From: a virus
Strand: one strand, 5' to 3'
Virus record (IMG/VR): IMGVR_UViG_3300032285_000892
Location: 32,001-96,000 of that record
DNA: 64,000 bases
A program made the position numbers and the translations under genes. The notes under the pieces were generated by a model. It did no database searches and was not told the origin of the DNA. It saw nothing but the letters and a program-made list of their open reading frames with translations. Position 1 is the stretch's first letter. Each line of letters opens with the position of its first letter. This document shows, in pieces, positions 47,601 to 63,583 of the stretch.

Positions 47601-50600
47601 GGTGCTGGTGGTGCAGCAGGAACAAGTGGTACAAATGGAACAACTGGTACTTCAGGTACCAATGGAACTTCTGGAGCAGGCGGTGCAGCAGGAACATCAG
47701 GAACTAATGGCACAACTGGTACATCAGGTACTAACGGTACATCTGGTGCAGGTGGTGCAGCAGGTACCTCAGGTACAAATGGAACAAGTGGTGTTGCTGG
47801 AACTAGTGGAACAAATGGTACTTCTGGTGTAGGAGGAGCTGCTGGTACATCAGGTACCTCTGGTACAAACGGTACTAGTGCTACATCAGGTACCAATGGT
47901 ACATCGGGTGCTGGTGGTGCAGCAGGAACTAGTGGTACAAACGGTACTAGTGCTACATCAGGTACCAATGGTACATCGGGTGCTGGTGGTGCTGCTGGTA
48001 CATCTGGTACAAACGGAACTTCAGGTACAAACGGAACTTCAGGTACTGCAGGTGTAGGTTATGCTAACATTACATCAACAACATCTGCAACACCTGCATC
48101 AACTGGTACGATCACTCTAACAACAAATTCTCAGGGAGCATTTGTTACAGGAAATAGAGTAAGAGCAGTCAATACTGTATCCAATTTATTTGAGGGTATT
48201 GTAACTATTACAGGTGGTACTTCATTTGCTATTGCAGCAGATTATAACCTTGGTACAACCACTGCAACCTCTTGGACAATAAGCTTAGCAGGTGTTAGAG
48301 GAGTAGCAGGTACTGCAGGAACAAGTGGTACATCTGGTACCAATGGAACATCAGGTGCTGGTGGTGCTGCTGGAACTGCTGGAACTAGTGGAACATCTGG
48401 TACTAATGGTACATCTGGTGCTGGAGGTGCAGCAGGTACAAGTGGTACAAATGGTACTAGTGCTACGTCTGGTACAAACGGAACATCAGGTGCAGGAGGA
48501 GCTGCTGGTACCTCTGGTACAAATGGTACAAGTGCCACATCAGGAACCAATGGTACTTCTGGTGCTGGTGGTGCTGCTGGAACAAGTGGTACATCTGGTA
48601 CTAATGGAACTTCTGCTTCGTCAGGTACATCAGGTACAAACGGAACGTCTGGTATAGCAGGTACTTCAGGAACCAATGGTACTTCTGGAATTTCTGGTAC
48701 ATCAGGTGCAGGTGGTGCTACTGGTACTGGTGGTACTGGTGGTACATCAGGTACAAATGGAACTAGCGGTGCTGGTGGTGCTGCAGGTACTTCAGGAACA
48801 AACGGTACATCAGGAATAACTGGTACATCAGGTACCAATGGTACATCGGGTGCTGGAGGTGCAGCAGGAACTAGTGGTACAAATGGAACATCAGGAGCTG
48901 GTGGTACTGGTGGTACTGGCGGAACGTCTGGTACTAATGGTACATCAGGTGTAGGATATGCTAATATTACATCAACTACATCAGCTACACCAGCCTCAAC
49001 AGGTACAATAACATTAACTACAAACTCTCAAGGTGCGTTTGTTACAGGCGATAGAGTGAGAGCTATTAATACAGCAGCTAACTTATTTGAAGGGATTGTT
49101 ACAATCACAGGTGGTACATCTTTTGCTATTGCTGCTGACTATAATTTAGGTACTACTACTGCTACATCCTGGACTATTACTTTAGCAGGTGTCAGAGGAA
49201 TTGCAGGTACTTCAGGTACTGCAGGTACAAATGGTACATCAGGTGTAAGTGGTACATCTGGTGCAAGTGGTGCTGGTGGAACTGGTGGTACAAATGGTAC
49301 GTCTGGTACAACAGGAACATCAGGAACAAACGGTACGTCAGGAGCTGGCGGTGCTGCTGGTACAAGCGGTACAAATGGTACAAGCGGTATTGCTGGTACC
49401 TCTGGAACAAGTGGTACATCAGGTGGTGGTGGAGCTGCTGGTACATCAGGTACAAATGGAACATCAGGAATAACTGGTACATCTGGTACAAACGGAACAT
49501 CTGGTGCTGGAGGAGCTGCTGGTACAAGTGGAACATCAGCTACTAATGGAACTTCAGGTACATCAGGTGGTGGTGGAGCAGCAGGTACAAGTGGTACAAA
49601 CGGTACAACTGGTACTTCAGGTGCTGGTGGTACTGGTGGGACTAGTGGTACAAGTGCTACAAGTGGTACATCAGGATTTGGTGGAACTGGTGGAACTAAT
49701 GGTACAAGTGGTACAACAGGAACAAATGGTTCAAATGGTACCTCTGGAACTAATGGTACAACAGGTACATCAGGAACTTCAAGTACTAGTGGTACTAATG
49801 GTACTTCTGGTGCTGGAGGAGCAACTGGTACTGGTGGTACATCAGGTACAAACGGTACTAGTGGTGCAAGTGGTACATCAGGAATTAATGGTACCTCAGG
49901 ACTTAATGGTACATCAGGAGTTAGTGGAGCACAAGGAACAGGTGGAGCTAACGGTACATCAGGACTTAGTGGTACCTCAGGAGTCAGTGGTACATCAGGT
50001 ACAAGTTCTGCTATTAGAACTATACAAGTGTTCACTGCTACATCAGGACAAAGTGTATTTACTATTAGTGGTGGATATACTCCTGGTCAGATAGATATGT
50101 ATGTTAATGGTGTTAAACTGACAGCTGCTGAATATGATGCAACTAGTGGAACAACAGTAACTATAACAAGTGGTGTGATCCTTAATGATATTGTAGAAGC
50201 TTATATGTTCCAATCATTGATTGGATATATGGCTAACACTGCAACATCAGGTACATCAGGATCTAGTGGTAATGGTACAAACGGAACTTCTGGTACTACT
50301 TTTGGTACAGCAGGAACGTCTGGTGTTAGTGGTAATGGTACAGGAGGTACTTCAGGTACTAATGGTACATCAGGAGCAAATGGTACCTTTGGAACTAGTG
50401 GTACCAATGGTACCAACGGTACAGCTGGAACATCTGGATCTAGTGGTCTATCTGTAGCATTTGCTGCTGGTGGTGTTACAAGTACAGGTGTATCTACTCT
50501 TGTATTCTCTAATGCTAATGGTGTATCATTTGGTATAAACAGTAACACTATTACAGCGTCAGCTGCTGGTGGTGGAGCTGGTGTTCAGTCTTATTATGAG

Positions 50601-51365
50601 AATATGCCAGTACTTCCAGGTACTGCAGTTATACAATTAGCTGGAGCTGCCTCTAATTATTTTCAACCATTTAACCTTCCTTACGACGTAAGTGCTTCTT
50701 ATGTTAGAATGCCTGTGCAGATGTCATTCTCTTCATTGACAGCAGCTACTGGTAATAGTACTCTATCTTATGCATATAGTCAATCTCAGACTATGTATTT
50801 TAATATTTACACAATGGGTACAGGTGCAAGTTCCGAATCTTTAGGGTTATATACTCAAGCTACAGCAAGTATGGCATATGCTTTTAGTTTAAGTTATAAT
50901 GCAACCAATGCTCAGACAATAAGACATAGTTTAAGTTATCCTGTTATTGGAGGATCTGCAACAGCATCTGCAAGTACACAATCTGCTACAGCTCAAATGT
51001 ATATGGGAACTGGAGATTTAACTGCATTTTCTGGATTTAAACATTTTGATATTCCTTTTGCTGCATCATTGCCATTAGGAGATTATTGGATGGGTATTCA
51101 AAGAAGTACACAATCATCTGCATCTACACAAGTAAGTTCTGCTGTAAGTGCTGCTACTTTCCAATTTTTCAACATAGGTGTATCTCAACAGAATGCTGCG
51201 TATAACTTAATGGGTACAACTGCTTCTACTAACCCAATTCAGTTAGGAGTAGGAGTTTATTCAGCAAGTGCTGTAGGTGCAACAAGTGCTTCAGTAGGTT
51301 TAAGTCAAATATCAACAGCAGCATCTAACTTAAGATTCCCTTTCCAGTTAATAAGACTAGCATAA
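44697..51365 (+). CDS. Giant fibre protein (2222 aa) of G-X-Y (GTS/GTN/GSS/GAG) tracts interrupted by small globular domains
   Basis: Its N-terminus ([28 protein letters not shown]) is shared with the 2302 ORF. About 5 kb of G-X-Y. Interspersed domains at about 45375, 46460, 48051, 48948 and 50010, plus a C-terminal domain. Confidence 0.8.
45058..50450 (+). repeat. Coding G-X-Y repeat region of the giant fibre, including a perfect 60-nt direct repeat (47861-47920 and 47933-47992)
   Basis: Direct reading of the sequence. The 60-nt copies were checked base by base. Confidence 0.9.
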
Positions 51366-51402: not shown

Positions 51403-51417
51403 TTGCAAACTAAATAT

Positions 51418-52140
51418 ATGAGTGATATAAAGCCACAAATTGTAATGCATGGGTTCGAAGGTTTTCACAACGAACAACGTTATGAAGACCTTGCCCAAAA
51501 GAATGTTTACAGGGACTTATCTACAATCTGTATTGTACCAACCAGAGGAATGATTTCTGCTAAGGTGGTTCAATCGTGGATGGGACTAATGTCATCAATG
51601 AACCAAAAGTTCATAAGGATGTTTGCAATCGGTATGGAAGTGGGTGCTGCCTATAGTCAAACTATAGAACAGATACTTCTACATCCAGAACTTTCTAAAT
51701 GGAAATACATCTTGACTCTAGAGGAAGACAATTGTCCTCCACCAGATGGATTGATTAAGTTGTATGAACATATGGATGAGTATGATGCCATTGGTGGATT
51801 GTATTGGACTAAAGGTATAGAAGGTAAACCAATGTGTTACGGAAATCCTAAAGTGTTTCCAGTAAACTTTGTGCCATTTATGCCTGATCCTGATACGGTT
51901 ACAAGATGTAACGGATTAGGAATGGGTTTTACTCTATTCAAACTAGATATGTTTAAGAACCCTAAGATGCCTAAACCTTTCTTTGAAACAGTTCAAAGAT
52001 ATACAGAAGGTAAAGGAGTGGAAGGATACACACAGGACCTAAAGTTCTTTGAAGAGGCAGGTAAACTTGGATATAAGTTTGCATGTGACTCAAGAGTAAA
52101 GGTAGGTCACTATGATGTGAATGAAGATCAAATGTGGTAA
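51418..52140 (+). CDS. GT-A fold glycosyltransferase (GT2-like)
   Basis: ICIVPTRG, YILTLEEDN (DxD equivalent), GLGMGFTLF, TQDLKF..A.KLGY...CDSRVKVGH. The start was moved from TTG 51403 to ATG 51418. Confidence 0.75.
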   Translation: MSDIKPQIVMHGFEGFHNEQRYEDLAQKNVYRDLSTICIVPTRGMISAKVVQSWMGLMSSMNQKFIRMFAIGMEVGAAYSQTIEQILLHPELSKWKYILTLEEDNCPPPDGLIKLYEHMDEYDAIGGLYWTKGIEGKPMCYGNPKVFPVNFVPFMPDPDTVTRCNGLGMGFTLFKLDMFKNPKMPKPFFETVQRYTEGKGVEGYTQDLKFFEEAGKLGYKFACDSRVKVGHYDVNEDQMW

Positions 52141-52158: not shown

Positions 52159-52734
52159 ATGAATGAACAATTAGAAGAAGTTATTGCAGTTGATTTAGGC
52201 TGCGGACAAAACAAAGCAACTATAGAGTTCTTTACAAACAATATGCAAGTCACTCCCACTAAAGTGATTGGTTTGGATATAGCTAACTGTGAAGGCGTAG
52301 ATATTGTACACGACTTAACTGTATTTCCATATCCTATTGAGGATGAATCAGTTGACGCAATACATACATCTCATTTCATAGAACACTTAGATGGGTTTGA
52401 GAGAATGAAGTTCTTTGATGAGTGCTATAGGATATTGAAGAAAGGCGGAAAGATTAGAGCTATCCATCCTTATTACAAATCTGTAAGAGCTATTCAAGAT
52501 CCCACACATAAGTTTCCACCTATTGGTGAGACATCTTATTTGTATTGGGATAAGAATTGGAGAGAAGTCAACAAGCTTGACCATTATCCTATTAAGTGTG
52601 ACTTTGAATTTAATATTTTTTATACTTGGCAAGACCCAAGTATACCAAACAAGAATGAAGAAACAAGGAATTTCAGTATTGATAAATACTGGAATGTTGT
52701 GGCTGATATGATTGTCGATTTAAAGAAACGATAA
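52159..52734 (+). CDS. Class I SAM-dependent methyltransferase (type 11-like)
   Basis: VDLGCG (motif I), GLDI, HDLTVFPYPIEDESVDAIHTSHFIEHL, ECYRILKKGG. Confidence 0.9.
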   Translation: MNEQLEEVIAVDLGCGQNKATIEFFTNNMQVTPTKVIGLDIANCEGVDIVHDLTVFPYPIEDESVDAIHTSHFIEHLDGFERMKFFDECYRILKKGGKIRAIHPYYKSVRAIQDPTHKFPPIGETSYLYWDKNWREVNKLDHYPIKCDFEFNIFYTWQDPSIPNKNEETRNFSIDKYWNVVADMIVDLKKR

Positions 52735-52767: not shown

Positions 52768-55515
52768 ATGACTAAGAATAAAGATTTAGCGGAATTAATC
52801 AATTACGTTACAGTTGATACCTCAGCTGGTACTCAGGTACAGTTGGCAGGTAGTGTAAAGCAAACATCTGTAACCTCTGCTATGTTAAAAGCAAACTCTA
52901 CAGGAGTACTTGTAGCTGCTACTGCTGGTACAGATTATCTTACGTCTGTTGGTATATCTAATTTAACTGCTACAGGAACTCCTTCTTCCACCACATATCT
53001 TCGTGGTGACAACACATGGGCTTCAGTATCTGGTGCTAGTGGTGTTACACTAGATACAGTTCAAACCATCACTGCACAAAAAACATTTCAAAGTCCAAGT
53101 GATGCTCCAGTTGCTGCAGGTGCTGAATTATTATCTACTGCTACTGCAGCTACAGGATGGACTGGAACAGCCTGGGCTACTGGTTTTACACACTCATCAG
53201 GAACAACAGTACAAACATTAAACTTTACACCAAGTACACTAACTGTTTATAAAGTTGTTATAACCTGTAGTGGTTATAGTGGTAGTGGTACATGTCAAGT
53301 GAACGTAGGTAGTTTAGTTACAACTATAAGTGGAAATGGAACTACTACCATATATCATTATCCAACAGCAACTACAACAAACAACTTAACTCCTACTACT
53401 GCTTTTGTAGGTACGATTGTATTAAGTATCAAGGTTGCTACAGCAAGTGTCCCTCCTGTCATTGTATCAAACTTAGCAAGTACAAGTCTAATTGAATTCA
53501 GAAATGCAAGAAGTCAAGGTGGATCAAATAGTATGTACATTGGATACAACAGTGGTGCATTTGGCTATCAAGCTGGTACCAATATTGGAATTGGTGAATC
53601 CTCGTTATACAATAACATTAGTGGAACCTTTAATATTGCAATAGGTGAAAGAGCGTTGTATGGGGGACAAGGCGGTGTAACACAACAATACAATACTGCT
53701 ATTGGATACTATTCACTGACGGCTTCTATTTCAGCAGCTAACTCTGTTGCTATTGGAGCTAATAGTATGCAAACTATAACAACAGGAAGTTTTAATGTAG
53801 GCATAGGTTCATTAGTAATGCAAAATGCAAATAGTACATCTAATAATGTTGCTATAGGATATTATGCATTTGCAAATAATACAAGTGGAGGAAACAACAC
53901 TGCAATTGGTTTTCAAGCTGGATCTTATATATCAGGAGGTGTTACTGTTGCTGCAACTAATACTAACTCGATATATATTGGATATGCTGCGTATCCTCTT
54001 GCAAGTGGGCAGACTAATCAAATTGTAATTGGAACAAGTGCAGTGGGGCTAGGTTCTAATACAACCGTACTTGGAAATAGTTCTACTGTTGATACAGCAA
54101 TTTACGGTAACCTTCTTTTAGGTAGTACCACTACAGGAGCATCATATAAGTTGAATGTAACTGGACAATCAATTGTTAGAGGAAATTCATCAGGAGAAAC
54201 TCCTACAGTAACAAATACAGTAGCAACTGGTTGGGCGACAGGGGTTACTGGTTGGACAGGCACTTATCCAAACTGGACAGTTGCAATTAGTGCAGGTACA
54301 ATGACTAATAGTACCGTTGCAACAGTTGATGTACTTTATACAGTAGTTGTTACAGCAACGGTCACTAGTACTCCAAAAAGTATGGATATTATTATTGGTG
54401 GTAATGTATTAACACTTAATTTTCCAGTAGGAACATCCACTCAATATGCTGGTGCAATTGCAATTGCTGCTGGTACATTATCTATTATTACCAATGGAAC
54501 TTTTAGTGGAACAATTTCTGCTTTTACTGTAGGAGCAAGAAGTAATACATTGAGTCCTATTATATCATTTACTTCTTCAGCAGGATTAAATCCTATTGAA
54601 ATAAGAACAGATGCAGCAAGTGCTGCAGACAATATAGCAATAGGATATCAAGCAGGACAAACGATTCTGACTGCTAATCAAACTGTTGCATTAGGATCAT
54701 ATGCTTTATCATCAAATCAGATTGCAGACGGATGTACTGCAATTGGATATGGTTCTCAACAATCTAATACTGGTGGAATTTATAATACTTCATTAGGAGC
54801 AATTGCATTACAATCAAATATTCAAGGTCGTGAAAATACTGCAATTGGATGGAGTGCTGGAACTACTACAAAAGGAAATTATGGTACTTTTGTTGGAAGT
54901 CAAGCAGGATATTATATAAATACTGGAGATTATAATACTGCTGTTGGAAATCAAGCTATGCTTGGAGATACAATAACATCTGTTACAGGACTACATAATA
55001 CTAGTATTGGAGCTTTTTCATTAACTGCTATTACAACAGCTTCATATAATACAGTTTCTGGATCTAGTGCACTTCAAAATCTTGTTACTGGAGACAATAA
55101 TATTGGAATAGGATATCTAGCAGGTTCACTTACCTCTGGTTCAGCAGCTAATGTAACAAATGCTAGTAATTCTATTTTTATTGGATGGAGTGCATTTCCT
55201 CTTGGAAACTCACAAACTAACCAAATTGTTATTGGATATGGTAGTGTTGGACTTGGTTCTAACACAACTGTAATTGGTAATAGTTCAACTACGTTAGCGT
55301 TGATTTATGGAGTACATATAATTGGAGGAACAAGTGCTAATGCAGCAGCACAATTACAGATTGACTCTACAACTAAGGGTGTGCTATTCCCAAGAATGAC
55401 TACCACACAAAAGAATGCTATTGGAACACCTCCTGCTGGATTAGTTATTTATGACACAACATTAAACAAGCTTTGTGTATATACAACTGCTTGGCAAACT
55501 ATAACATCAGCATAA
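52768..55515 (+). CDS. Fibre/adhesin with two blocks of about 14-aa N-x-A-x-G beta-roll (YadA-head/Hep-Hag-like) repeats
   Basis: Repeats such as NIAIGERAL, NTAIGYYSL, NTAVGNQAM. Both halves end in NSI(Y/F)IG..A.PL...QTNQIVIG...VGLGSNTTV.GNSST, showing an internal duplication. Confidence 0.8.
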   Translation: MTKNKDLAELINYVTVDTSAGTQVQLAGSVKQTSVTSAMLKANSTGVLVAATAGTDYLTSVGISNLTATGTPSSTTYLRGDNTWASVSGASGVTLDTVQTITAQKTFQSPSDAPVAAGAELLSTATAATGWTGTAWATGFTHSSGTTVQTLNFTPSTLTVYKVVITCSGYSGSGTCQVNVGSLVTTISGNGTTTIYHYPTATTTNNLTPTTAFVGTIVLSIKVATASVPPVIVSNLASTSLIEFRNARSQGGSNSMYIGYNSGAFGYQAGTNIGIGESSLYNNISGTFNIAIGERALYGGQGGVTQQYNTAIGYYSLTASISAANSVAIGANSMQTITTGSFNVGIGSLVMQNANSTSNNVAIGYYAFANNTSGGNNTAIGFQAGSYISGGVTVAATNTNSIYIGYAAYPLASGQTNQIVIGTSAVGLGSNTTVLGNSSTVDTAIYGNLLLGSTTTGASYKLNVTGQSIVRGNSSGETPTVTNTVATGWATGVTGWTGTYPNWTVAISAGTMTNSTVATVDVLYTVVVTATVTSTPKSMDIIIGGNVLTLNFPVGTSTQYAGAIAIAAGTLSIITNGTFSGTISAFTVGARSNTLSPIISFTSSAGLNPIEIRTDAASAADNIAIGYQAGQTILTANQTVALGSYALSSNQIADGCTAIGYGSQQSNTGGIYNTSLGAIALQSNIQGRENTAIGWSAGTTTKGNYGTFVGSQAGYYINTGDYNTAVGNQAMLGDTITSVTGLHNTSIGAFSLTAITTASYNTVSGSSALQNLVTGDNNIGIGYLAGSLTSGSAANVTNASNSIFIGWSAFPLGNSQTNQIVIGYGSVGLGSNTTVIGNSSTTLALIYGVHIIGGTSANAAAQLQIDSTTKGVLFPRMTTTQKNAIGTPPAGLVIYDTTLNKLCVYTTAWQTITSA

Positions 55516-55530
55516 TAAATAATAAATAAT

Positions 55531-55845
55531 ATGAATACTTACGAATGGATTATTTCAAAATTAGAAGTTATGCCTCAAGTTGGTAGTATAAATGATTATG
55601 TTGTTCGTTGCCATTGGAAATATGTAGCAACAGATGGTACAATAACAAAAGAAGAATATGGGTTGCAAGCATTTGAACCAGACCCTGCTCAACAAAATTA
55701 TGTTCCATATGAGTCTTTAACAAAAGAAGTTGTAGAGGGATGGTTAAATAGTTCTATAAATGTAGAAGCAATGAAAGCATCATTAGATGGTAAGATTCAA
55801 GATGAATTACAACCATCTATTGTTAGTTTACCTATTCCTTGGTAA
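55531..55845 (+). CDS. Small fibre-associated protein
   Basis: 104 aa (YEWII..HW...VPYESLTKEVVEGW...LPIPW), a type I recognise as commonly following phage fibre genes. Confidence 0.55.
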   Translation: MNTYEWIISKLEVMPQVGSINDYVVRCHWKYVATDGTITKEEYGLQAFEPDPAQQNYVPYESLTKEVVEGWLNSSINVEAMKASLDGKIQDELQPSIVSLPIPW

Positions 55846-55849
55846 CGTA

Positions 55850-55880
55850 TTGCAAATATTTAAAACATTATATACATTTG
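55850..55880 (+). promoter_or_regulatory. Bacteroidota-type promoter (TTG-N20-TAcaTTTG)
   Basis: Exact TAnnTTTG at 55873-55880 and TTG at 55850-55852. Confidence 0.6.
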
Positions 55881-55901
55881 CATAAACTAACAGACATTAT
55901 T

Positions 55902-56171
55902 ATGAAATTAAATTTTAACTTCAACTTGGTTAACCTAGATGGTATAGAGATCGAGAATGCTAATGCAGGAAAAGTATTAGCAAACGCACTAGTTCAACAA
56001 CCTAAAGGAGATGCTCTTAAAATATGGGAAATATCATTAGCTCTCAACAAGGGAGAGATTGTTGATTTAGATTCTTCTGATCAAGAACTTATTAAAAACT
56101 TCATTAGAGAGACTGACGCAATTAATATTATTGCTAAGGGTCAAATCCTAACTGTTTTTAATAAAGGGTAG
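55902..56171 (+). CDS. Small helical hypothetical protein (89 aa, MKLNFNFNL...)
   Basis: The start was moved from 55839 to ATG 55902, which lies downstream of the promoter. The 3' end overlaps the convergent heptosyltransferase gene by 24 nt. Confidence 0.6.
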   Translation: MKLNFNFNLVNLDGIEIENANAGKVLANALVQQPKGDALKIWEISLALNKGEIVDLDSSDQELIKNFIRETDAINIIAKGQILTVFNKG

Positions 56172-57218
56172 TTTAACCATTACATCTTCTACGGAGATAC
56201 TCTTATGGCATTCAAACTGTCTAGGAGTATCTTCGTGTTCAGGACACCAGTTCCAATTACCCTTATCAAATCTGAATTTAGGGTTATTCCAACATCCATT
56301 ACATACACTTCTGTTTTCTATACGGATGCATTCAAACTCGTGATTAGCTTCTGTAAAGTTAGCTATCATTACAACAATAGTTTCTAATGCCCAGGCCAAC
56401 CAGCTAATACCACTACTTAGTCCTATGTAGAAGTCACATCCATTAAGATGATTAATGACGCTCTCTAGAGATGTATCTTCTAGTTTCTCTGCACCATAAT
56501 CATCTGCCTCTTGTGATAATTCAATCACTCTATATCCTTGATCTTTTAGCCTACGTATAAGTTCTGGCCACTTATCCCAATGTTTGCATTGAGATGTACT
56601 TTTTGTAGATATACAGATATACTTTTCATCTTCCAGTAATAATCCTGGTAGATCAATTATCCTTGGTCTCATCTCCTTGTATGGTAGATGTAGAATATTA
56701 CATGCGGCTTTCTGTAATGGTATCGTTACAGGATTAACAGGTTCTTTATTACTATCCCAATGCCATCCTAAGTCTGGCATAGCTACAATATCATATACCA
56801 CCTGCCCTGGTTGAACAAACTCAAGTTCAGGATACATACTTTCAAACAAGAAGTTCTTGAATGTGCTCACGATAACATCGCACTGATACTTCTTTTTGAA
56901 CTCTAAACAATATGGCATCCATGCAATAGTATCTCCTAAGGAGCTGCTACCAAATGCAATGAACACACGTTTATCTTTAAGATGTTGTAAGAAGCTTATG
57001 CGACGTTTCAATACACCCTTACTGTTCCTAGCTTCCAAAAAGAAGTTACCAATGTAACGTATAGGAAACTTCATCCATGTATTCTTACTAAGAGTTGTAC
57101 TATAGTGTTCTTTACGTTCACCATCAATCTCTTCAACAAATGTACATGTATAATCTTCATCACAGTCTGTAATTTCAAAGTACAAACCATCAATGTTATG
57201 GAAGTTATAATTAAACAT
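56148..57218 (-). CDS. Autotransporter O-heptosyltransferase homologue (BAHT family, TibC/Aah-like) with an intact iron-finger
   Basis: SLGDTIAW, YICISTKSTSQCKHW, FYIGLSSGISWLAWA, and C-x2-C-x15-C-x11-C ending TPRQFEC. Confidence 0.85.
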   Translation of the reverse strand: MFNYNFHNIDGLYFEITDCDEDYTCTFVEEIDGERKEHYSTTLSKNTWMKFPIRYIGNFFLEARNSKGVLKRRISFLQHLKDKRVFIAFGSSSLGDTIAWMPYCLEFKKKYQCDVIVSTFKNFLFESMYPELEFVQPGQVVYDIVAMPDLGWHWDSNKEPVNPVTIPLQKAACNILHLPYKEMRPRIIDLPGLLLEDEKYICISTKSTSQCKHWDKWPELIRRLKDQGYRVIELSQEADDYGAEKLEDTSLESVINHLNGCDFYIGLSSGISWLAWALETIVVMIANFTEANHEFECIRIENRSVCNGCWNNPKFRFDKGNWNWCPEHEDTPRQFECHKSISVEDVMVKLPFIKNS

Positions 57219-58911
57219 ATGTTTCTATATAAGCTTTAGTTGTATCTTCACTTGTCCATCTCTTATTAATAATTCCTGCAGCATCGTACATCTTCTTTAA
57301 TTGCTTACATATCACACTCCAATCATACTCTTCACGATGTTCTAGTTGATCAGTGTAATATTTAAACCACCCTCTATCTAATGTTGCTAGTCCTTTTCTT
57401 GCTTCCATTTCTGTTACTTCTGACATTCTATACATACCAGGAACCTCTGCATTACATGTACCAACAATTGGTAATCCACAACTCATTGCTTCTAGAATGG
57501 CTAGGTTAGGATGGCCATACTCTAAGAATGATGGAGCCATGAATATACTATGTGTTTGATAAAGCTCTAGTGTTTCTGCATCTGTAGGATTTGTACACTT
57601 TAAAGTTAACTTTTCATAGTCTAATAGATCTGGATGACCCTTAAAAAACTCTAGGTTATTCTCAGGACCTGCAATAGTAATAGGTAACTTAAACCACTTA
57701 GCTGCAGCTATTGCTATCCTGAATCCTTTACGATCAATAGTGCTATCACCTGCTAGTCCATTGTTACAGATCATTAATAGCTTCTTATCTTCACGCACAT
57801 CTGGTAGAATAGGTTTGAAGAATTCTGTATCTACTCCATGAGATAGGAAGAATAACTTATCCGTATCATCAAAGTAATTAATGATGTGTTTACTATGACA
57901 TATAGAAAACACAGATCCTTTGATAGCTGCTAGATTATTGTGGTATACGCCACTGTCCTTCCCATAGTATTCAGCATGATGATCATGTAGAGAGTATACA
58001 TATGGTATACCTTTGGCTAACATGTCAAGAGCTGTATTAGCCATATGACAATGCACGAGTTGGTTCTCTTGCTTTGTTACTTCATTCCATTGTTGTATCT
58101 CTACATCTACGCCAAGTCTTCTAAGTCTATCTGTATATGACCAGATGATACGTTCTACAGCTCCCCAACCATTAGGTGGGATAGTGATTAGGCCAGTGGC
58201 CACTTGTACTATCTTATATTTCATTTCTTTATTAATTTTCATTTCCCATTTGTCTAGATATTTTTGTTCTCCTTGTCGCATTTTAATAATTGCAGAATCA
58301 TTAAGATTTACTATGTTTAATGATTTAAGATGACTAACTAATGAATGTCTTACTAATGCATGCTTTATGCCTTTACTCTCTATTACTCTAGCATAGTCAT
58401 TGTCCTGATAGTACATATCAAAGTTTTCATCCCAAGGACATACTAGATCAAATACTCTTTTAGTCATTACAAAACACCAGCCACCTAAGAACTCTGTAAC
58501 TTTATAACTTTCATAGTATGTATCATCACCATACATAAAATGATGGTCATAGAATCTAGCATACAGTATAGGATCTCTAGGCGTGAATGATTCAATGTCT
58601 GGTCTTTCAGTATGTACATTTACAATCTCAGTGAACCAATTCTTTTCAAACAATAGATCATTGTTTATAATAACCACCCAGTCATTACTACAATACCTAC
58701 TTGCTATATTGATATATTTATTATATCCAAAAGGTTCTTTTGAGATAACGTAGCTATCTACATATTTAGAATAGTCCCAAGTCTCTCCTGATTCTACTAA
58801 TATAATGTTAAATTTATGAGCCTTATCCGTATAGCGTAATGTGAACAATGTTCTACATACCATCTCATAAGTTTCTGCATCTGTTTTAGTAAGACAAATT
58901 ACATCTACCAT
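57211..58911 (-). CDS. Bifunctional glycosyltransferase: N-terminal GT-A (GT2-like) plus C-terminal GT-B (GT4-like)
   Basis: N-half: IILVES, VVIINNDLLF, YYQDNDY. C-half: PPNGWGAVE, SHGVDTEFF, PSFLEYGHPNLAILEAMSCGLPIVG. Confidence 0.85.
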   Translation of the reverse strand: MVDVICLTKTDAETYEMVCRTLFTLRYTDKAHKFNIILVESGETWDYSKYVDSYVISKEPFGYNKYINIASRYCSNDWVVIINNDLLFEKNWFTEIVNVHTERPDIESFTPRDPILYARFYDHHFMYGDDTYYESYKVTEFLGGWCFVMTKRVFDLVCPWDENFDMYYQDNDYARVIESKGIKHALVRHSLVSHLKSLNIVNLNDSAIIKMRQGEQKYLDKWEMKINKEMKYKIVQVATGLITIPPNGWGAVERIIWSYTDRLRRLGVDVEIQQWNEVTKQENQLVHCHMANTALDMLAKGIPYVYSLHDHHAEYYGKDSGVYHNNLAAIKGSVFSICHSKHIINYFDDTDKLFFLSHGVDTEFFKPILPDVREDKKLLMICNNGLAGDSTIDRKGFRIAIAAAKWFKLPITIAGPENNLEFFKGHPDLLDYEKLTLKCTNPTDAETLELYQTHSIFMAPSFLEYGHPNLAILEAMSCGLPIVGTCNAEVPGMYRMSEVTEMEARKGLATLDRGWFKYYTDQLEHREEYDWSVICKQLKKMYDAAGIINKRWTSEDTTKAYIETYV

Positions 58912-58916
58912 ATATA

Positions 58917-61544
58917 TTACTTTCTAAATGTTTTAAACTGCTGATCTATTAATGAGTAACCATCTGCTTGTGTAGTGATACGATTGTGTACAATGCCCAT
59001 CTCATATCCACTACCACGAAAAATGTTATTAAAATAAATATCTGCAGCATCCCAAGGATGTGTTCTTAGTTTATCTTTTAAATAGTTCTTAACAAACTTA
59101 GGGAACATAATACATTGCATACCTATAAGATGGTTTGTAACATACATGTCTTCATTCACTTCTTTCACTACAGGACTCTGTGGCCAGCCAAAGTCTAAGG
59201 TATCTTTGTCACCAAATGACATGAATCCTATATTATTAGCTTCTAGCTTTGTGGCACATTCTTCCACCATGTAAACAAATTTGTTTACATCTACCTCAAT
59301 TATGCAATCTCCTTCACACACTATTAGATAATCACATTCACTAAACTCACCTAGGATAGCTTCTTTGAAGGCTGAATAGCAACCGTAGTGTGCTGGCGTA
59401 AGAGCTGTGCTTCTTTCTCTGACTGTAGCTTCATCGAATAACTCCATAGAGACTGCTTGTGGCCTGTTACAGTTATGGATGGGTGGGAGGCTACGATAAG
59501 GCTCGTTCGTGTGCAAGATGTACTCCCATCCATAATCTTGTACTTGCTCCAACGACGCTCTTGATAATTGTTCTCTGTCATCATTTAATGTAGTTTGTAT
59601 GTGTACTAATTTAATCTTTGGTCTATTTGTTTTAGGAGCTGGTTCAGATCCTGTTAATATCTTTATAGTTCCTTTTATATCGTTTACAGAAAACTCTCTT
59701 GTGGTTTGGTTTTCCACCAACTCTAAACTCACTGTAACAATATCATCATCTAGTCGTAGATATGATTCTTTATACTTAAGATCTAGCTCTCTTGAGAACT
59801 CTCTCTTATTATTTAACAATCTCATCTTGTAGTAAGGAACAGTCTCATTGTATGTATAGAAATAGAAGTAGTTACGATTGTCTTCTTCACATCTAACAAT
59901 ACCTATGTACTCACTATTAGAAGACTTGCCTTCGCCTGTATGTACTAAGAATGTTTCCTCTTCAGGATGTTCTACCCATATACCATCTGTTCTCTCTACC
60001 TTCTTCATCATGTAATCTTCTAAGAAGTTATGACATCCTATATACTCACATAATGAATTGTATTGTTCAGGTGTACGTACATCATCTAATAATTTACTAA
60101 TAAAGTTTGTATTAAAGAACATACAATTAGTTTGTATACCTTTACCAAATGGCGTATTCAATGTAGCTAATACAGCTTTCCATTCTTCATCTAACTTATT
60201 AAAGTTATTATTGATGACATTAAAATCTCTTTCATCTATTACATGATCAAATGTTACATAGAACATCTTAGTAAAACCAAACACTTTAGCTGCTTTACCT
60301 GCATTAATTAAATTAGTTAGTACTGTTAATGACTGATTGGTAGGTCCTTCAATGCGCATCTCTACACTATAGTCTTCCTGACTGCGAGTGAATCTATTAT
60401 AGTAGCTATGATGTGTCAAAGGATTATGCTCATCATAAATGTAGTAGTCTACCAGCTTCTGTACATCAGGATTTACAGGATAATGACTTACTAACATAAT
60501 TGGTCTACCTAACTTCCTAGCGCTTTCTATACATGCAATAGTTAAGTTTTCTCTAATCTTAGTATCAGGATATGTTCCTATAACGATTAGTTCTTTATTA
60601 ATTAATTCTAAGTTTAATATTTCTTTCATAGCAGCTATATCATTACTAACGTTACCAGTTAAATAGGTGACGTCATCATAATCATTATACTTATTACAAT
60701 ACACATCTAGGTTGTACATCATCTTAGGTAGATCAGGATAGCATAATGCTTCTTTGATTGCAATAGGGTTAAGCTCTTTGTTACCTCTATCTCCTTTAGA
60801 TGGAAATAAGAACATGTCAGACTCACTCACCCATTTACTTACTACATCTATTTCTCCATGAACTAAACAGTTGTCTGGTAGATCTTTCATTAATGGTTTC
60901 CAGTAGCTTTCAAAGTTACCAGCTTGATTACCTAAGAAGTGAAACTTTATATTATAGTCTACAAGATGCTTAGCCATCTCAATAGCATAGCCTTGGTTTT
61001 TACGTTGTGTCCACAATCCTACAATTACTACATGTTTATAATCTCTTTGTTCTGGATAACGTACAATAGTATCTACAGGATACTCAATAACACGCATTGG
61101 TACTTCTAGATGAGCATACTTGAATACATTGTATGCACTAACAAACACAAACTCATCTGGCATCCATCTCTTATGATCAGGATTGAATGAGCTATCATGT
61201 GTAGTTTCTACAATACGATAGGTTCTATCTCCACTGTACACTTCTCTGGTAAGATCATTGTCCATGAACATCTCTGGAAACTCTTCCATAGAGATGACAT
61301 CAGGATTAAAGATTTCAATAAAATCTAAAAGCTCTCCCTTGTTATCTCCTAATGATTTAAAATTATCACCAAGGATATCAATCACCTTGTTGCGCTGTAC
61401 TACATACTTCCATGCAATGAATGCATACTCAACTACCATGATATCAAAATGATCCTTGAGTAGTTCTACTTTATTTAAAGTTACCTGTGGCGCTCCTCCT
61501 GTAGAGAAATGAGGAGATACTATTAAGAGCCTTTTTCGTGACAT
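58917..61544 (-). CDS. Multidomain glycosyltransferase: GT4-like N-terminus, possible central GT-A-like domain, GT25-like C-terminus
   Basis: PHFSTGGAPQ...DMFLFPS...ELNPIAIKEA (GT4). Central LVSHYP..FYVTFDHVI. C-terminal HYGCY...YLIVCEGD..WDAAD (GT25-like). Confidence 0.8.
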   Translation of the reverse strand: MSRKRLLIVSPHFSTGGAPQVTLNKVELLKDHFDIMVVEYAFIAWKYVVQRNKVIDILGDNFKSLGDNKGELLDFIEIFNPDVISMEEFPEMFMDNDLTREVYSGDRTYRIVETTHDSSFNPDHKRWMPDEFVFVSAYNVFKYAHLEVPMRVIEYPVDTIVRYPEQRDYKHVVIVGLWTQRKNQGYAIEMAKHLVDYNIKFHFLGNQAGNFESYWKPLMKDLPDNCLVHGEIDVVSKWVSESDMFLFPSKGDRGNKELNPIAIKEALCYPDLPKMMYNLDVYCNKYNDYDDVTYLTGNVSNDIAAMKEILNLELINKELIVIGTYPDTKIRENLTIACIESARKLGRPIMLVSHYPVNPDVQKLVDYYIYDEHNPLTHHSYYNRFTRSQEDYSVEMRIEGPTNQSLTVLTNLINAGKAAKVFGFTKMFYVTFDHVIDERDFNVINNNFNKLDEEWKAVLATLNTPFGKGIQTNCMFFNTNFISKLLDDVRTPEQYNSLCEYIGCHNFLEDYMMKKVERTDGIWVEHPEEETFLVHTGEGKSSNSEYIGIVRCEEDNRNYFYFYTYNETVPYYKMRLLNNKREFSRELDLKYKESYLRLDDDIVTVSLELVENQTTREFSVNDIKGTIKILTGSEPAPKTNRPKIKLVHIQTTLNDDREQLSRASLEQVQDYGWEYILHTNEPYRSLPPIHNCNRPQAVSMELFDEATVRERSTALTPAHYGCYSAFKEAILGEFSECDYLIVCEGDCIIEVDVNKFVYMVEECATKLEANNIGFMSFGDKDTLDFGWPQSPVVKEVNEDMYVTNHLIGMQCIMFPKFVKNYLKDKLRTHPWDAADIYFNNIFRGSGYEMGIVHNRITTQADGYSLIDQQFKTFRK

Positions 61545-62479
61545 GTTATTGTTTTTGCAAGGTTATACACTCTATCTACGTCTGGTTGACACTCAAACGT
61601 TTCTTTGTTTTCTAAACATCCAATGAGTGGCTGCACATAATCTATAGTGGGCCAATACTCAAGGGCGTACTTCATATTGGAGCAGCAATGTAGATCACAC
61701 GATCCCTCTACATAGTGGTATCGATACGTCTGACCATTGGCCCTATAAGGTATTCTAAATTCAGGAGATAGTGCAGATCCTAGATGAATGATCTCACTGC
61801 GTGTTGTACCTGCTAGATGTAGCAGTCCGCTATCCATTGTAATAAAACATGAAGCTTTGTTGATGAGGTGCCAGCAATCAGATATACTGGTCTTGTTCAT
61901 TAGGTTCATACCTAATGGTATTTCAAAATTGAATGCAGGTTTTTCTACATTAAAGAACCCAGTCTCACTACTATCCTTACCTATACTGATGACATGTATA
62001 CCTGCAGCATTAAGCTTCTCTGTTAAATCCATCCACTTATCTGCTGGCCATGTTCTATTAGCCCATGTGGTTACAGGATGTATCAATACATAATGTTCAG
62101 GGAGTTCCATCTCAAAGTCTGTGAGAGGAATGTAATCACATTTCATCTCACTCTTACGTAACATAAATCCTAAATGTATAGCATGGAACTGACGTATGTC
62201 CATGGTATTATGCTTCATCTCTACACCACGCTCATCTTTCTTACCTACCAGATAGAAAGAGTTATGCATGATATAATTATCATTGAAGTAACCCCAGTCA
62301 ATTGATGTATGTTTATAACTAGCCTCTACGTATGGTAGTTTCTTGAACAACTCTGGCATAGGACTCACCACAGTTATCTTCTTTCCGTATGATTCAGCTA
62401 GCTTTCTTATCGTAGGCGTTGCACAGATAAGATCACCTAGAGCAGGACATTCACTAAGATTAAGACAAACAGGTTTCAT
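61523..62479 (-). CDS. GT9-family (heptosyltransferase-like) glycosyltransferase with a C-terminal Cys cluster
   Basis: LGDLICATPTIRKL, YVLIHP...NRTWPADKW, FITMDSGLLHLAG, and C-x3-CC...C...FEC. Confidence 0.85.
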   Translation of the reverse strand: MKPVCLNLSECPALGDLICATPTIRKLAESYGKKITVVSPMPELFKKLPYVEASYKHTSIDWGYFNDNYIMHNSFYLVGKKDERGVEMKHNTMDIRQFHAIHLGFMLRKSEMKCDYIPLTDFEMELPEHYVLIHPVTTWANRTWPADKWMDLTEKLNAAGIHVISIGKDSSETGFFNVEKPAFNFEIPLGMNLMNKTSISDCWHLINKASCFITMDSGLLHLAGTTRSEIIHLGSALSPEFRIPYRANGQTYRYHYVEGSCDLHCCSNMKYALEYWPTIDYVQPLIGCLENKETFECQPDVDRVYNLAKTITCHEKGS

Positions 62480-63120
62480 GATTTTCTCATTAAGAAGTCA
62501 ACTGTCTCATCGTTTCTCTCAATTATTTCATATCCTAATCCTGTTAGAAAATTCACTGCAGTGTTTGTATTATCTTCTAACCAGATAAGTGGTGCATCTC
62601 TATCAATCAACTTTAACATACCTTCAAATGCAGACATCTCATGACCTTCTATATCTATCTTAATGAATTCAACATGCTCATCTAAATGAAGATCATCTAA
62701 AGCTAAGACTATATTTCTATTATGTCCATATTGAACAATTCTTACAACACCACTATTTGAGTAATGTCCATCATCAAAATGCACAAGGGATGTTCTACTA
62801 CCTACACCTACATTAAGTGCGGCTACATCAGAATACCTATCTGTATTCTGTTTTAATAAAGCAAAGTTTTCTGGATGAATTTCAAAAGCTATGATATTTA
62901 GCTCAGGAAAGTGGTGTTTGAATTGTACACAATGTGCACCTATGTTAGCACCAATGTCTAACATTAGTCCTGTAGAAGGGAAATGATGTTTCCATCTATT
63001 GAATATTTCAAATTCCCAAAAGTTATTATACTTAACTATATCGTCTGATATAAACTCAGGACCCTCAAAAATAATCATAGGGTTACCTTGTATACTAGTA
63101 AGTCTAGTTCCTCTTCTCAT
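62476..63120 (-). CDS. FkbM-family methyltransferase
   Basis: LDIGANIGAH, AFEIHPENF, FIKIDIEGHE. The start was moved from 63168 to 63120 because a minus-strand promoter lies at 63138-63168. Confidence 0.9.
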   Translation of the reverse strand: MRRGTRLTSIQGNPMIIFEGPEFISDDIVKYNNFWEFEIFNRWKHHFPSTGLMLDIGANIGAHCVQFKHHFPELNIIAFEIHPENFALLKQNTDRYSDVAALNVGVGSRTSLVHFDDGHYSNSGVVRIVQYGHNRNIVLALDDLHLDEHVEFIKIDIEGHEMSAFEGMLKLIDRDAPLIWLEDNTNTAVNFLTGLGYEIIERNDETVDFLMRKS

Positions 63121-63123
63121 GTA

Positions 63124-63155
63124 TTTGTTGGTTTGGTCAAAGTTAAATATATTTG
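63124..63155 (+). promoter_or_regulatory. Rightward Bacteroidota promoter TTTG-N20-TATATTTG
   Basis: TTTG at 63124-63127 and TATATTTG at 63148-63155. ATG at 63172. Confidence 0.7.
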
Positions 63156-63168
63156 TATAAAAAAACAA
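63138..63168 (-). promoter_or_regulatory. Leftward Bacteroidota promoter TTG-N20-TAACTTTG driving the glycosyltransferase operon
   Basis: Plus-strand CAAAGTTA at 63138-63145 and CAA at 63166-63168. Confidence 0.6.
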
Positions 63169-63171
63169 GAC

Positions 63172-63540: not shown

Positions 63541-63551
63541 TTAAAAATTTA

Positions 63552-63583
63552 TTTGCATAAGTGATAAGAATTACAGATATTTG
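63552..63583 (+). promoter_or_regulatory. Promoter-like element TTTG-N20-GATATTTG
   Basis: One mismatch to the -7 consensus, with correct spacing. Confidence 0.4.

What the first reader, a model, noticed from the sequence alone, without database searches (positions are those of the whole stretch)
56148..57218. TibC/Aah-type iron-finger autotransporter heptosyltransferase in a phage, three genes from an adhesin-like beta-roll fibre
Seen: LGD, QCKHW and GLSSGISWLAW motifs, plus Cys spacing C-x2-C-x15-C-x11-C (56208-56303), which matches the TibC iron-finger spacing as I recall it. Established: BAHT enzymes are Fe-containing dodecamers that hyper-heptosylate Ser in the beta-helical passengers of AIDA-I and TibA. 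Inference: the 915-aa beta-roll fibre (52768-55515) or the Ser-rich fibres replace the autotransporter as substrate. No ADP-heptose synthesis genes (gmhA/hldE/gmhB) are visible in the window, and many Bacteroidota lack heptose in their LPS, so the donor may be a different nucleotide sugar. That would be new specificity.
Basis: partly seen in the sequence, partly recalled or inferred. Interest (0 to 1): 0.8.

Follow-up and report, generated by a model that had tools for sequence, protein, structure and literature searches.

The report
Phage TibC-like glycosyltransferase lacking the thumb
A complete 119-kb crAss-like phage encodes a true relative of TibC, the E. coli enzyme that sugar-coats adhesins, but it lacks the loop that builds TibC's 12-subunit ring, and its likely target is the phage's own proline-free Gly-Thr-Ser fibres, although no sugar has been observed on them.

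Summary
Its four cysteines have TibC's exact spacing. It scores above NCBI's cut-off for the Aah/TibC family and its predicted fold matches TibC (TM 0.83).

It is not a canonical member:
- The beta-hairpin thumb that assembles the TibC dodecamer is deleted.
- Arg286, which contacts the adenine of the donor, is Val here.
- It falls in a separate, well-supported clade of mostly phage sequences.

In that clade the gene lies beside proline-free Gly-[Thr/Ser]-Ser repeat proteins, in phages and in bacterial chromosomes (24 of 40 loci). None of 52 canonical loci has such a neighbour; sampled canonical neighbours are mostly AIDA-type repeat proteins. The likely acceptors are therefore the 2222-aa and 975-aa G-T-S fibres.

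The phage has no heptose or other sugar-nucleotide genes. A host supply of ADP-heptose is not excluded: 64% of sampled Bacteroidota carry the heptose adenylyltransferase. The donor is undetermined and nothing is shown biochemically.

This scan has reached the same reading on other phage genomes. I found no paper describing it.

The parts
56148..57218 (-). 356-aa TibC/Aah-like (BAHT-superfamily) protein glycosyltransferase: N-terminal beta-barrel (about residues 1-80), GT-B catalytic domain and a four-Cys finger. It is the last gene of a five-gene minus-strand cassette.
   Evidence: TIGR04414 227 bits against cut-off 200. TibC 4rap E 4e-43. AF2 pLDDT 89.8 and Foldseek TibC TM 0.83.
56931..56933 (-). 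Codon of Asp96, the equivalent of the TibC catalytic base Asp110 (the D of LGD).
   Evidence: HMMER alignment to 4rap and its D110A mutant 4rb4. Invariant in 111 aligned domains except one BimC-like row. Role taken from PMC4358343.
56583..56597 (-). Codons of Thr208 to Lys212 (T-S-Q-C-K), the equivalents of TibC Thr226 and Lys230 that bind the donor beta-phosphate.
   Evidence: Lys invariant apart from the BimC-like row; Thr/Ser in nearly all rows (Gly in three canonical, Ala in the BimC-like row).
56484..56519 (-). Residues 234-245, a short loop where TibC has the beta-hairpin thumb (TibC about 256-277, tip Phe265/Val266). About 10 residues are deleted.
   Evidence: A 10-residue gap in the HMMER alignment. 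This region is 12-15 aa in 24 of 26 viral loci against 21-22 aa in 50 canonical bacterial loci. The AF2 model has no hairpin between strand 230-233 and helix 251-260.
56457..56459 (-). Codon of Val254, at the position of TibC Arg286 (the adenine N1 contact).
   Evidence: This position is V, I, T, S, L or A in most phage forms and Arg (rarely Cys) in canonical BAHTs.
56208..56303 (-). Four-Cys finger, C306-x2-C309-x15-C325-x11-C337, the equivalent of TibC Cys339/342/358/370.
   Evidence: Invariant in all full-length aligned domains. Metal binding was not tested.
57211..58911 (-). 566-aa GT2 + GT4 two-domain glycosyltransferase, overlapping the BAHT-like gene by 8 nt.
   Evidence: Pfam and PHROG hits. 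Its GT4 half is fused to the BAHT-like domain in L021-L023.
58917..61544 (-). 875-aa protein with an N-terminal GT4-like domain and an unassigned C-terminal part.
   Evidence: Pfam Glyco_trans_1_4. Its first 290 or so residues are fused N-terminally to the BAHT-like domain in L010-L018, L027 and L030, and a homologue is present in 23 of 28 loci.
61523..62479 (-). 318-aa second GT9-like glycosyltransferase, with weak similarity to LPS heptosyltransferases.
   Evidence: TIGR02193 and TIGR02195 at about 42 bits, far below their cut-offs, and TIGR04414 at 36.7 bits. Fused to the BAHT-like domain in L019.
62476..63168 (-). 230-aa FkbM-family methyltransferase, the first gene of the cassette.
   Evidence: TIGR01444 68 bits against cut-off 37.7. 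phrog_8156.
44697..51365 (+). 2222-aa fibre with 359 proline-free G-X-Y triplets in 25 runs (X = Thr 65%, Y = Ser 52% / Asn 17%). This is the proposed main acceptor.
   Evidence: Fibres sharing its N-terminus or G-T-S repeat region lie beside the BAHT-like gene in related phages.
2302..5229 (+). 975-aa tail-fibre protein with 132 G-T-S/N triplets, a second candidate acceptor.
   Evidence: PHROG tail fibre and collagen-like minor tail families. Triplet counts.
52768..55515 (+). S+T is 27% and there are 9 copies of N-x-[AST]-[IVL]-G-x-x-[AS].
   Evidence: phrog_4636 tail spike. No Pfam or PDB match. Motif count. A conserved neighbour in only 2 of 28 loci.
52159..52734 (+). 191-aa class I SAM methyltransferase lying between the fibre genes.
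   Evidence: Pfam Methyltransf_11, 40.7 bits.

Best explanation
The ORF encodes a soluble GT-B protein O-glycosyltransferase of the TibC/Aah (BAHT) superfamily. It keeps the catalytic Asp (D96), the phosphate-binding Thr/Lys (T208, K212), the sugar-contacting Trp (W273), the N-terminal beta-barrel and the four-Cys metal finger. These points are shown by sequence and predicted fold. It has lost the beta-hairpin thumb that links TibC dimers into a dodecameric ring. It therefore probably works as a finger-mediated dimer or smaller unit; in relatives it is one domain of a multi-glycosyltransferase polypeptide (inferred). During infection it most likely adds the first sugar to Ser/Thr hydroxyls in the proline-free Gly-Thr/Ser-Ser/Asn triplet arrays of the phage's own fibres, the 2222-aa and 975-aa proteins. 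The co-transcribed GT4, GT2 and GT9-like enzymes and the methyltransferases would then extend and methylate the glycan. This is inferred from gene neighbourhood and domain fusions. All activated sugars must come from the host. ADP-heptose is the default donor by homology, but replacement of the adenine-contacting Arg by Val leaves the donor open.
For: Family and fold. Residue mapping onto TibC. Separate clade: a 100% SH-aLRT split between 39 thumbless or atypical rows and 65 canonical rows. Acceptor: a proline-free G-X-Y ORF (S+T at 45-98% of X/Y positions in all but one, 65-98% in most) lies within the flanks of 24 of 40 thumbless or intermediate loci, including 9 of 9 bacterial loci with at least 16 kb of sequence, against 0 of 52 thumb-bearing loci (Fisher p = 8e-12, not corrected for phylogeny). 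The canonical clade instead neighbours AIDA-repeat proteins, some with an autotransporter beta-domain (5 of 7 sampled). Reverse test: of 47 viral contigs chosen only for a (G-T-S/T)6 run, 17 encode a protein over the TIGR04414 cut-off, including 5 of 5 with 9 or more runs. Only 4 of 50,697 phage records have such a protein. Fusions of the BAHT-like domain to the same GT4 or GT9 domains that are separate genes here. Tight five-gene cassette with 4-22 nt overlaps. No sugar-nucleotide genes in the phage.
Against: No glycan has been observed on any such fibre, and all acceptor evidence is genomic association, much of it within related phages. Three viral records at least 98% complete have G-T-S runs but no BAHT-like gene, so the pairing is not obligatory. 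Several BAHT-like loci show no G-X-Y gene within 10 kb (L020, L022, L028). TibC recognises a folded beta-helix, and how a thumbless enzyme would recognise G-T-S repeats is unknown. The oligomeric state and the bound metal are inferred only.
Confidence: 0.6

Rival explanations
1. One reading: the enzyme heptosylates the 915-aa repeat fibre (52768-55515), which stands in for the beta-helical autotransporter passenger.
For: The gene lies three genes from that fibre. The fibre has 27% Ser+Thr and repeated N-x-A-I-G-like motifs. A BAHT gene sits next to a YadA-like gene in Burkholderia savannae, so non-AIDA repeat adhesins can be partners.
Against: A homologue of the 915-aa fibre is near the BAHT-like gene in only 2 of 28 viral loci, and one of those hits is a C-terminal module of a G-X-Y fibre. 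It has no AIDA, Hep_Hag or other Pfam match and no PDB match. The enzyme lacks the ring architecture that threads a beta-helix.
Confidence: 0.12
2. The cassette modifies host envelope molecules, such as the LPS core, a capsule or a surface protein, to block superinfection or alter receptors, rather than modifying virion proteins.
For: GT9 enzymes are classically LPS heptosyltransferases, and a second, LPS-heptosyltransferase-like GT9 gene is in the cassette. Phage glycosyltransferases that change host serotype are known (reviewed in PMC12619734).
Against: The best matches are the protein-modifying TibC clade (227 bits), not LPS enzymes (TIGR02193 at 25.7 bits against a cut-off of 185). The recurrent pairing with G-T/S-S repeat proteins in phages and in bacterial chromosomes is not explained. 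No lysogeny context was examined.
Confidence: 0.1
3. It acts on the G-T-S fibres as proposed, but the phage subclade has switched donor from ADP-heptose to another nucleotide sugar.
For: Arg286, described as the basis of ADP selectivity and required for activity in TibC, is V, I, T, S, L or A in nearly all phage forms, whereas bacterial thumbless forms and canonical BAHTs keep Arg. No gmhA or rfaE domain I was found in 24 BAHT-carrying viral records. rfaE domain II was not searched directly in them; one weak rfaE-II/TagD-like hit (68 bits, far below cut-off) turned up through PF01467. Carriers include phages of cyanobacteria (Mel-JY01).
Against: The heptose-contacting Trp and the phosphate ligands are invariant. 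A Val286 member sits on a 238-kb contig of a Pseudobdellovibrionaceae MAG that has gmhA and rfaE-II above their cut-offs. 64% of sampled Bacteroidota have rfaE-II. The Arg contact was called weak, in a 3.9 A structure.
Confidence: 0.35
4. The cassette glycosylates phage DNA (hypermodified bases) rather than protein.
For: Phage GT-B enzymes that decorate DNA are common, and multi-glycosyltransferase DNA hypermodification is documented (cited in PMC12619734).
Against: Homology is specifically to a protein Ser O-glycosyltransferase with its substrate-binding finger and barrel. The same clade occurs in bacterial chromosomes beside small G-S/T-S lipoprotein-like genes. No base-hypermodification genes were looked for.
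Confidence: 0.03

Closest known systems
TibC (ETEC H10407) and Aah (DAEC): bacterial autotransporter heptosyltransferases, BAHT, TIGR04414, PDB 4RAP/4RB4
   Same: About 30% identity over 290 residues. The domain order is the same: beta-barrel, GT-B, four-Cys finger with identical spacing. Catalytic Asp, Thr/Lys, Trp and Phe368 are conserved. Residue 300 is Ser, as in Aah. Predicted fold TM 0.83.
   Different: Arg286 is Val. It falls in a separate clade (100% support). It is encoded by a phage, with no autotransporter or AIDA-repeat gene nearby; its neighbours are G-T-S triplet fibres and further glycosyltransferases.
Thumbless BAHT-like genes in chromosomes of Arenicellales, Acidiferrobacterales and other Gammaproteobacteria MAGs (e.g. 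L055, a 5.18-Mb chromosome)
   Same: The thumb deletion, the four-Cys finger and the TibC_1st-type barrel are shared. They are adjacent to proline-free (G-S/T-S)n proteins and belong to the same major clade.
   Different: They keep Arg286. Their partners are small (130-220 aa) lipoprotein-like proteins with poly-Asp tails, not giant fibres. They have a DUF6502 neighbour and no accompanying GT4 or GT2 cassette.
SgtA-BclA3 of Clostridioides difficile (PMC7157674)
   Same: A glycosyltransferase encoded next to a collagen-like (G-P-T) surface protein adds the initiating O-linked sugar to Thr/Ser of the triplets. This is a functional precedent for the proposed mechanism.
   Different: The enzyme is unrelated and Mn-dependent, the donor is UDP-GlcNAc, the acceptor is proline-containing, and it belongs to a bacterial spore, not a phage.
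Mycobacteriophage virion glycosylation (Freeman et al. 2023, cited in PMC12619734)
   Same: Phage-encoded glycosyltransferases decorate the phage's own structural proteins.
   Different: The glycosyltransferase families differ, the acceptors are C-termini of capsid and tail-tube subunits, and it has been shown experimentally.
LPS heptosyltransferases WaaC/WaaF (GT9, PF01075)
   Same: GT-B fold and the Pfam GT9 C-lobe match, 36.8 bits.
   Different: TIGR02193 scores 25.7 bits against a cut-off of 185. Fold TM is only about 0.4. They have no barrel or Cys finger and act on a lipid acceptor.

Membership tests
BAHT (TibC/Aah; TIGR04414) | Score above the curated family cut-off over nearly the full profile | tested here: met
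   227 bits against a cut-off of 200; profile positions 47-370 of 374. Also 225.9 bits in the genome search.
BAHT (TibC/Aah; TIGR04414) | Protomer architecture: N-terminal flattened beta-barrel plus GT-B catalytic domain | tested here: met
   The AF2 model (pLDDT 89.8) has strands at 3-75 followed by two Rossmann-like lobes. Foldseek aligns 369 columns to 4rap at TM 0.83.
BAHT (TibC/Aah; TIGR04414) | Four-Cys finger C-x2-C-x15-C-x11-C (Cys339/342/358/370) | tested here: met
   C306, C309, C325 and C337 have the same spacing and align with TibC's.
BAHT (TibC/Aah; TIGR04414) | Iron bound by the finger | not testable with these tools
   Needs purified protein, then colour, ICP-MS or EPR.
BAHT (TibC/Aah; TIGR04414) | Catalytic base Asp110 and donor ligands Thr226, Lys230 and Trp305 | tested here: met
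   D96, T208, K212 and W273 are conserved.
BAHT (TibC/Aah; TIGR04414) | Arg286 contacting adenine N1 (basis of ADP-sugar selectivity) | tested here: not met
   Val254 occupies this position, with no Arg or Lys within the aligned helix.
BAHT (TibC/Aah; TIGR04414) | Beta-hairpin thumb with a hydrophobic tip (Phe265/Val266), described as highly conserved in the family and required for the dodecamer and for activity | tested here: not met
   A 10-residue deletion leaves 12 aa against 21-22 aa in 50 canonical loci. The model has no hairpin.
BAHT (TibC/Aah; TIGR04414) | Dodecameric ring | not testable with these tools
   Only monomer prediction was available. Loss of the thumb predicts no ring.
BAHT (TibC/Aah; TIGR04414) | Genetic pairing with an AIDA-type or other autotransporter substrate | tested here: not met
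   The neighbours tested here have no AIDA or Autotransporter Pfam domain. The partners are G-X-Y fibres. In canonical loci, 5 of 7 sampled neighbours carry AIDA repeats.
BAHT (TibC/Aah; TIGR04414) | ADP-heptose as donor, O-linked heptose on Ser | not testable with these tools
   The phage has no heptose genes. A host supply is possible.
LPS heptosyltransferases (GT9: WaaC/WaaF/WaaQ) | Score above the NCBIfam equivalog cut-offs; fold without barrel or finger | tested here: not met
   TIGR02193 scores 25.7 bits against 185.3. WaaC TM is about 0.4. Only the generic Pfam GT9 C-lobe matches.

The most novel reading that the evidence does not exclude
The thumbless clade is a dedicated family of glycosyltransferases for proline-free Gly-[Thr/Ser]-Ser 'serine collagen' repeats. 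It is used by many unrelated phages for their fibres and by some bacteria for small surface lipoproteins. Dense O-glycosylation replaces proline and hydroxyproline in stabilising or shielding the fibre. In the phage subclade that lost Arg286, the donor is no longer ADP-heptose.
Probability: 0.3. Interest if true: 0.8.

Novelty: new variant of a known kind. Interest (0 to 1): 0.6.

Why it matters
BAHT enzymes are known only as partners of virulence autotransporters in Proteobacteria, acting as iron-containing dodecamers. This relative keeps the chemistry and the metal finger, has lost the ring-forming element, and appears to have changed acceptor class to phage fibres made of Gly-Thr-Ser triplets.

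If that is right, several things follow:
- Dense protein glycosylation of virions would extend to crAss-like and other environmental phages, with consequences for host recognition, stability and antigenicity.
- It would suggest how proline-free collagen-like fibres are stabilised or protected.
- It would show that the pipeline label 'autotransporter strand-loop-strand O-heptosyltransferase', given to many of the more than a thousand related metagenomic proteins, names the wrong substrate.

A cultured carrier, Microcystis phage Mel-JY01, makes the idea testable.

Tried and rejected
- **Promoter and terminator scan of 55400-64000.** There were fewer promoter-like sites than in shuffles and no convincing terminator between the convergent operons, so it was uninformative.
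- **tRNA scan of the window.** None found.
- **PHROGs for the BAHT-like ORF.** No family matched.
- **Search for a donor clue.**
  - The phage has no gmhA, rfaE I or II, heptose epimerase, NAD-epimerase or NTP-transferase genes.
  - None of 24 related viral records has gmhA or rfaE I.
  - Small cytidylyltransferase-like genes near the BAHT-like gene in four relatives look like NMN adenylyltransferases, with one weak rfaE-II/TagD-like case far from the gene. They were rejected as donor evidence.
- **Host identification.** The large terminase is crAss-like. Its nearest isolates infect Leptolyngbya (39% identity), Cellulophaga (32%) and Flavobacterium. The closest hits in prokaryote assemblies are short contigs binned into Sediminibacterium, Chitinophaga and a gammaproteobacterial MAG. 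The host is not settled. The literature on NIOZ-UU157, which has the best viral fold match, gave no host.
- **The 915-aa fibre.** It has no Pfam or PDB sequence match, so 'YadA-like beta-roll' could not be confirmed.
- **Literature.** No paper links BAHT or TibC with phages or with collagen-like proteins.
- **Rejected readings.** An ordinary LPS heptosyltransferase was rejected on scores and fold. A chance cysteine pattern was rejected because the cysteines are homologous columns.
Full report
**What is there.** The window is bases 32001-96000 of a 119,148-bp IMG/VR virus record with direct terminal repeats. It is rated complete, and my script found a 123-bp repeat. Its large terminase, portal and major head protein match PHROG families. 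The terminase is crAss-like. Its nearest isolates are Leptolyngbya phage Lbo-JY46 (39% identity), Cellulophaga phages phi17:2 and phi4:1 (32%), Flavobacterium phages and gut crAss-like phages. The host is therefore unknown; Bacteroidota is plausible and a cyanobacterium is not excluded.

These include C306-x2-C309-x15-C325-x11-C337 at nt 56208-56303. It is the last gene of a tightly packed minus-strand cassette with overlaps of 4, 22 and 8 nt. The order is FkbM methyltransferase, GT9-like, 875-aa GT4-containing protein, GT2+GT4, then the BAHT-like gene. The cassette converges on the plus-strand fibre genes.

**Family.**
- NCBIfam TIGR04414 (hepto_Aah_TibC) scores 227 bits against a cut-off of 200, nearly full length. 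LPS heptosyltransferase I scores 25.7 against 185.
- The best solved relative is TibC (4rap, E 4e-43); WaaC is at E 0.39.
- An AlphaFold2 model built on 18 viral homologues has pLDDT 89.8 and pTM 0.89. It superposes on TibC at TM 0.83 (E 7e-30), and the next fold, WaaC, is at about 0.4.

**Residue-level comparison with TibC** (Yao et al. 2014, PMC4358343).
- TibC binds Fe through Cys339, 342, 358 and 370, the same spacing as here, and the cysteines align.
- The catalytic base Asp110 corresponds to D96. The beta-phosphate ligands Thr226 and Lys230 correspond to T208 and K212. Trp305, which contacts heptose O4, corresponds to W273, and Phe368 to F335. In 111 aligned domains the Asp and Lys are invariant apart from one BimC-like row, the Trp is invariant in every row, and the Thr is Thr or Ser in nearly all.
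- Residue 300, the determinant of D,D- versus L,D-heptose selectivity, is Ser as in Aah.

Two features are not conserved:
- Arg286 contacts adenine N1, and its alanine mutant loses activity. Here it is Val254.
Its point mutants are inactive dimers. Here it is removed by a 10-residue deletion, and the model has only a short loop between strand 230-233 and helix 251-260.

**A distinct clade.**
- I collected 28 viral loci, 80 loci from prokaryote assemblies and annotated plasmid examples.
- Canonical bacterial enzymes, mostly Burkholderiaceae, Bradyrhizobium and other Pseudomonadota, have a 21-22-residue thumb region with the consensus I-D-Q-K-x-x-H-G-x-G-x-V-W-N-H-I-P, and Arg (rarely Cys) at position 286.
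- Of 26 viral domains, 24 have 12-15 residues there. So do members in MAG chromosomes of Arenicellales, Acidiferrobacterales and other Gammaproteobacteria.
- Most phage forms have V, I, T, S, L or A at position 286. The gammaproteobacterial thumbless forms keep Arg.
- A maximum-likelihood tree of 104 rows splits the 39 thumbless or atypical rows from 65 canonical rows with 100% SH-aLRT support. It was a quick search and several branches are long.
- The family is large. 1697 proteins reach E <= 1e-10 in the 90%-clustered collection, many on contigs of 113-118 kb like this phage, and JGI names many of them 'autotransporter strand-loop-strand O-heptosyltransferase'.
- Among 50% representatives, 616 reach E <= 1e-30. 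Most of the best 150 are multidomain proteins of 500-2000 aa, some with two to five BAHT-like stretches.

**What it is linked to.**
- In more distant phages the BAHT-like domain is fused to a GT4 domain homologous to the first 290 or so residues of this window's 875-aa protein (L010-L018, L027, L030). In others it is fused to the GT4 half of the 566-aa protein (L021-L023) or to the second GT9 (L019).
- In Microcystis phage Mel-JY01 it is the C-terminus of a 1226-aa protein annotated 'methyltransferase FkbM'.
- These fusions indicate that the separate genes here act on one pathway.
- The 915-aa fibre has a homologue near the gene in only 2 of 28 loci.
- A giant G-X-Y protein lies within 10 kb in 15 of 24 thumbless viral loci, and directly adjacent in L010 and L019.
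- Small G-X-Y proteins flank the gene in 9 of 9 thumbless or intermediate bacterial loci with at least 16 kb of sequence. None of 52 thumb-bearing loci has one (Fisher p = 8e-12, not corrected for relatedness).
- The partners share an unusual composition: 0-5% proline in all but one, few charged residues, and Ser+Thr at 45-98% of the X and Y positions in all but one (65-98% in most). This phage's 2222-aa fibre has 359 triplets, and a 975-aa tail fibre at 2302-5229 has 132.
- The bacterial partners look like lipoproteins: a signal peptide with G-C-G-G, then (G-S/T-S)n, then a poly-Asp tail. They sit next to a DUF6502 gene.
- Canonical enzymes instead sit beside AIDA-repeat proteins, some with an autotransporter beta-domain (5 of 7 sampled neighbours).
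- As a reverse test I scanned IMG/VR for six consecutive G-T-[S/T] codon triplets and searched 47 of the resulting contigs of at least 30 kb. These contigs were mostly about 30% complete. Seventeen (36%) encode a protein above the TIGR04414 cut-off, including all five with nine or more runs. Only 4 of 50,697 catalogued phage genomes have a homologue.
- The pairing is not obligatory. Three records that are at least 98% complete, each with a few G-T-S runs, lack the gene.

**Donor.**
- The phage has no gmhA, rfaE domain I or II, heptose epimerase, NAD-epimerase or NTP-transferase genes.
- None of 24 related viral records has gmhA or rfaE domain I.
- Activated sugars must therefore come from the host.
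I do not think this carries weight. In 151 evenly sampled Bacteroidota genomes, 97 have rfaE domain II above its cut-off.
- The two Chitinophagaceae MAGs holding the closest contigs have gmhA and rfaE-II. So does the Pseudobdellovibrionaceae MAG that carries a Val286 enzyme on a 238-kb contig.
- The consistent loss of Arg286 in the phage subclade is the only positive hint of altered nucleotide recognition.
- I rate ADP-heptose and another donor as roughly comparable in likelihood.

**Mechanism proposed.**
- Shown by sequence and fold: an active-site-intact BAHT-type GT-B enzyme with barrel and Cys finger.
- Inferred: it cannot build the TibC ring. It acts as a dimer or as a module. It initiates O-glycosylation on Ser/Thr of the G-T-S arrays of newly made fibres in the host cytoplasm. 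The neighbouring glycosyltransferases and methyltransferases elaborate the glycan.
- Precedents are SgtA, which O-GlcNAcylates the G-P-T collagen-like region of the adjacent BclA3 (PMC7157674), and mycobacteriophage virion glycosylation (Freeman 2023, cited in PMC12619734).
- Nothing biochemical is known for this clade.

**Known or new.**
- Annotation pipelines already label such phage proteins 'Aah/TibC'. Examples are UniProt A0A6J5SVC1 and the 47%-identical NIOZ-UU157 protein found by fold search, and the JGI names.
- Full-text searches found no paper connecting BAHT enzymes with phages or with collagen-like proteins.
- Earlier reports of this scan on other phage genomes reached the same pairing. 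I saw them only after my own neighbourhood, alignment and tree analyses, and they agree with mine.
- I class this as a new variant of a known kind: a thumbless sister clade of the BAHT family, apparently tied to G-[TS]-S repeat proteins, with the donor unresolved.

Noticed in passing
L055:7063-10565 (Arenicellales chromosome); also L051-L054, L057, L058: In bacterial chromosomes the thumbless BAHT-like gene forms a conserved trio with a DUF6502 gene and one or two small lipoprotein-like proteins. These have a signal peptide with G-C-G-G, then (G-S/T-S)n, then a poly-Asp tail. This may be an undescribed bacterial surface glycoprotein system.
   Followed up: partly
L037:4750-8430 (Microcystis phage Mel-JY01, PP395634.1): The 1226-aa protein annotated 'methyltransferase FkbM' ends in a full BAHT-like domain (37% identity to the window protein, intermediate 19-aa thumb region). 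This is a cultured phage in which virion glycosylation could be tested.
   Followed up: partly
L042:1029-1839, L040:1321-1731, L041:1435-1839 (relatives L009, L013, L012): Small nucleotidyltransferases of about 135 aa, with best matches to NMN adenylyltransferase, lie one or two genes from the BAHT-like gene in several relatives. In L009's phage one is preceded by an adenylyl-sulfate-kinase-like gene. The window has no counterpart.
   Followed up: partly
P0121, P0122, P0147, P0227: Some metagenomic proteins contain two to five tandem BAHT-like stretches in one chain. This is a further sign that this clade does not depend on the TibC ring.
   Followed up: no
L036:2566-3891 (Burkholderia savannae plasmid, next to a YadA-like gene): In my alignment this BimC-like BAHT has Glu, Ala and Ala at the positions of Asp110, Thr226 and Lys230, and a non-canonical thumb sequence. 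It may be catalytically divergent or simply misaligned.
   Followed up: no
window 52768-55515 and L009:14853-18869: The C-terminal 500 residues of the 915-aa fibre are 35% identical to the C-terminus of a 1338-aa fibre in L009. That fibre's N-terminus matches this phage's 2222-aa fibre and it carries G-X-Y repeats, so fibre modules are shuffled between these genes.
   Followed up: no
window 51403-52140: This 245-aa ORF between the G-T-S fibre and a methyltransferase has no Pfam or NCBIfam match, only phrog_1574 (unknown function). Another first-reader note calls it GT-A-like. It is not conserved next to the BAHT-like gene in the 28 loci.
   Followed up: no
genome-wide: 97 of 151 evenly sampled Bacteroidota genomes have a heptose-1-phosphate adenylyltransferase (TIGR02199) match above its cut-off, so the capacity to make ADP-heptose seems common in that phylum.
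   Followed up: partly
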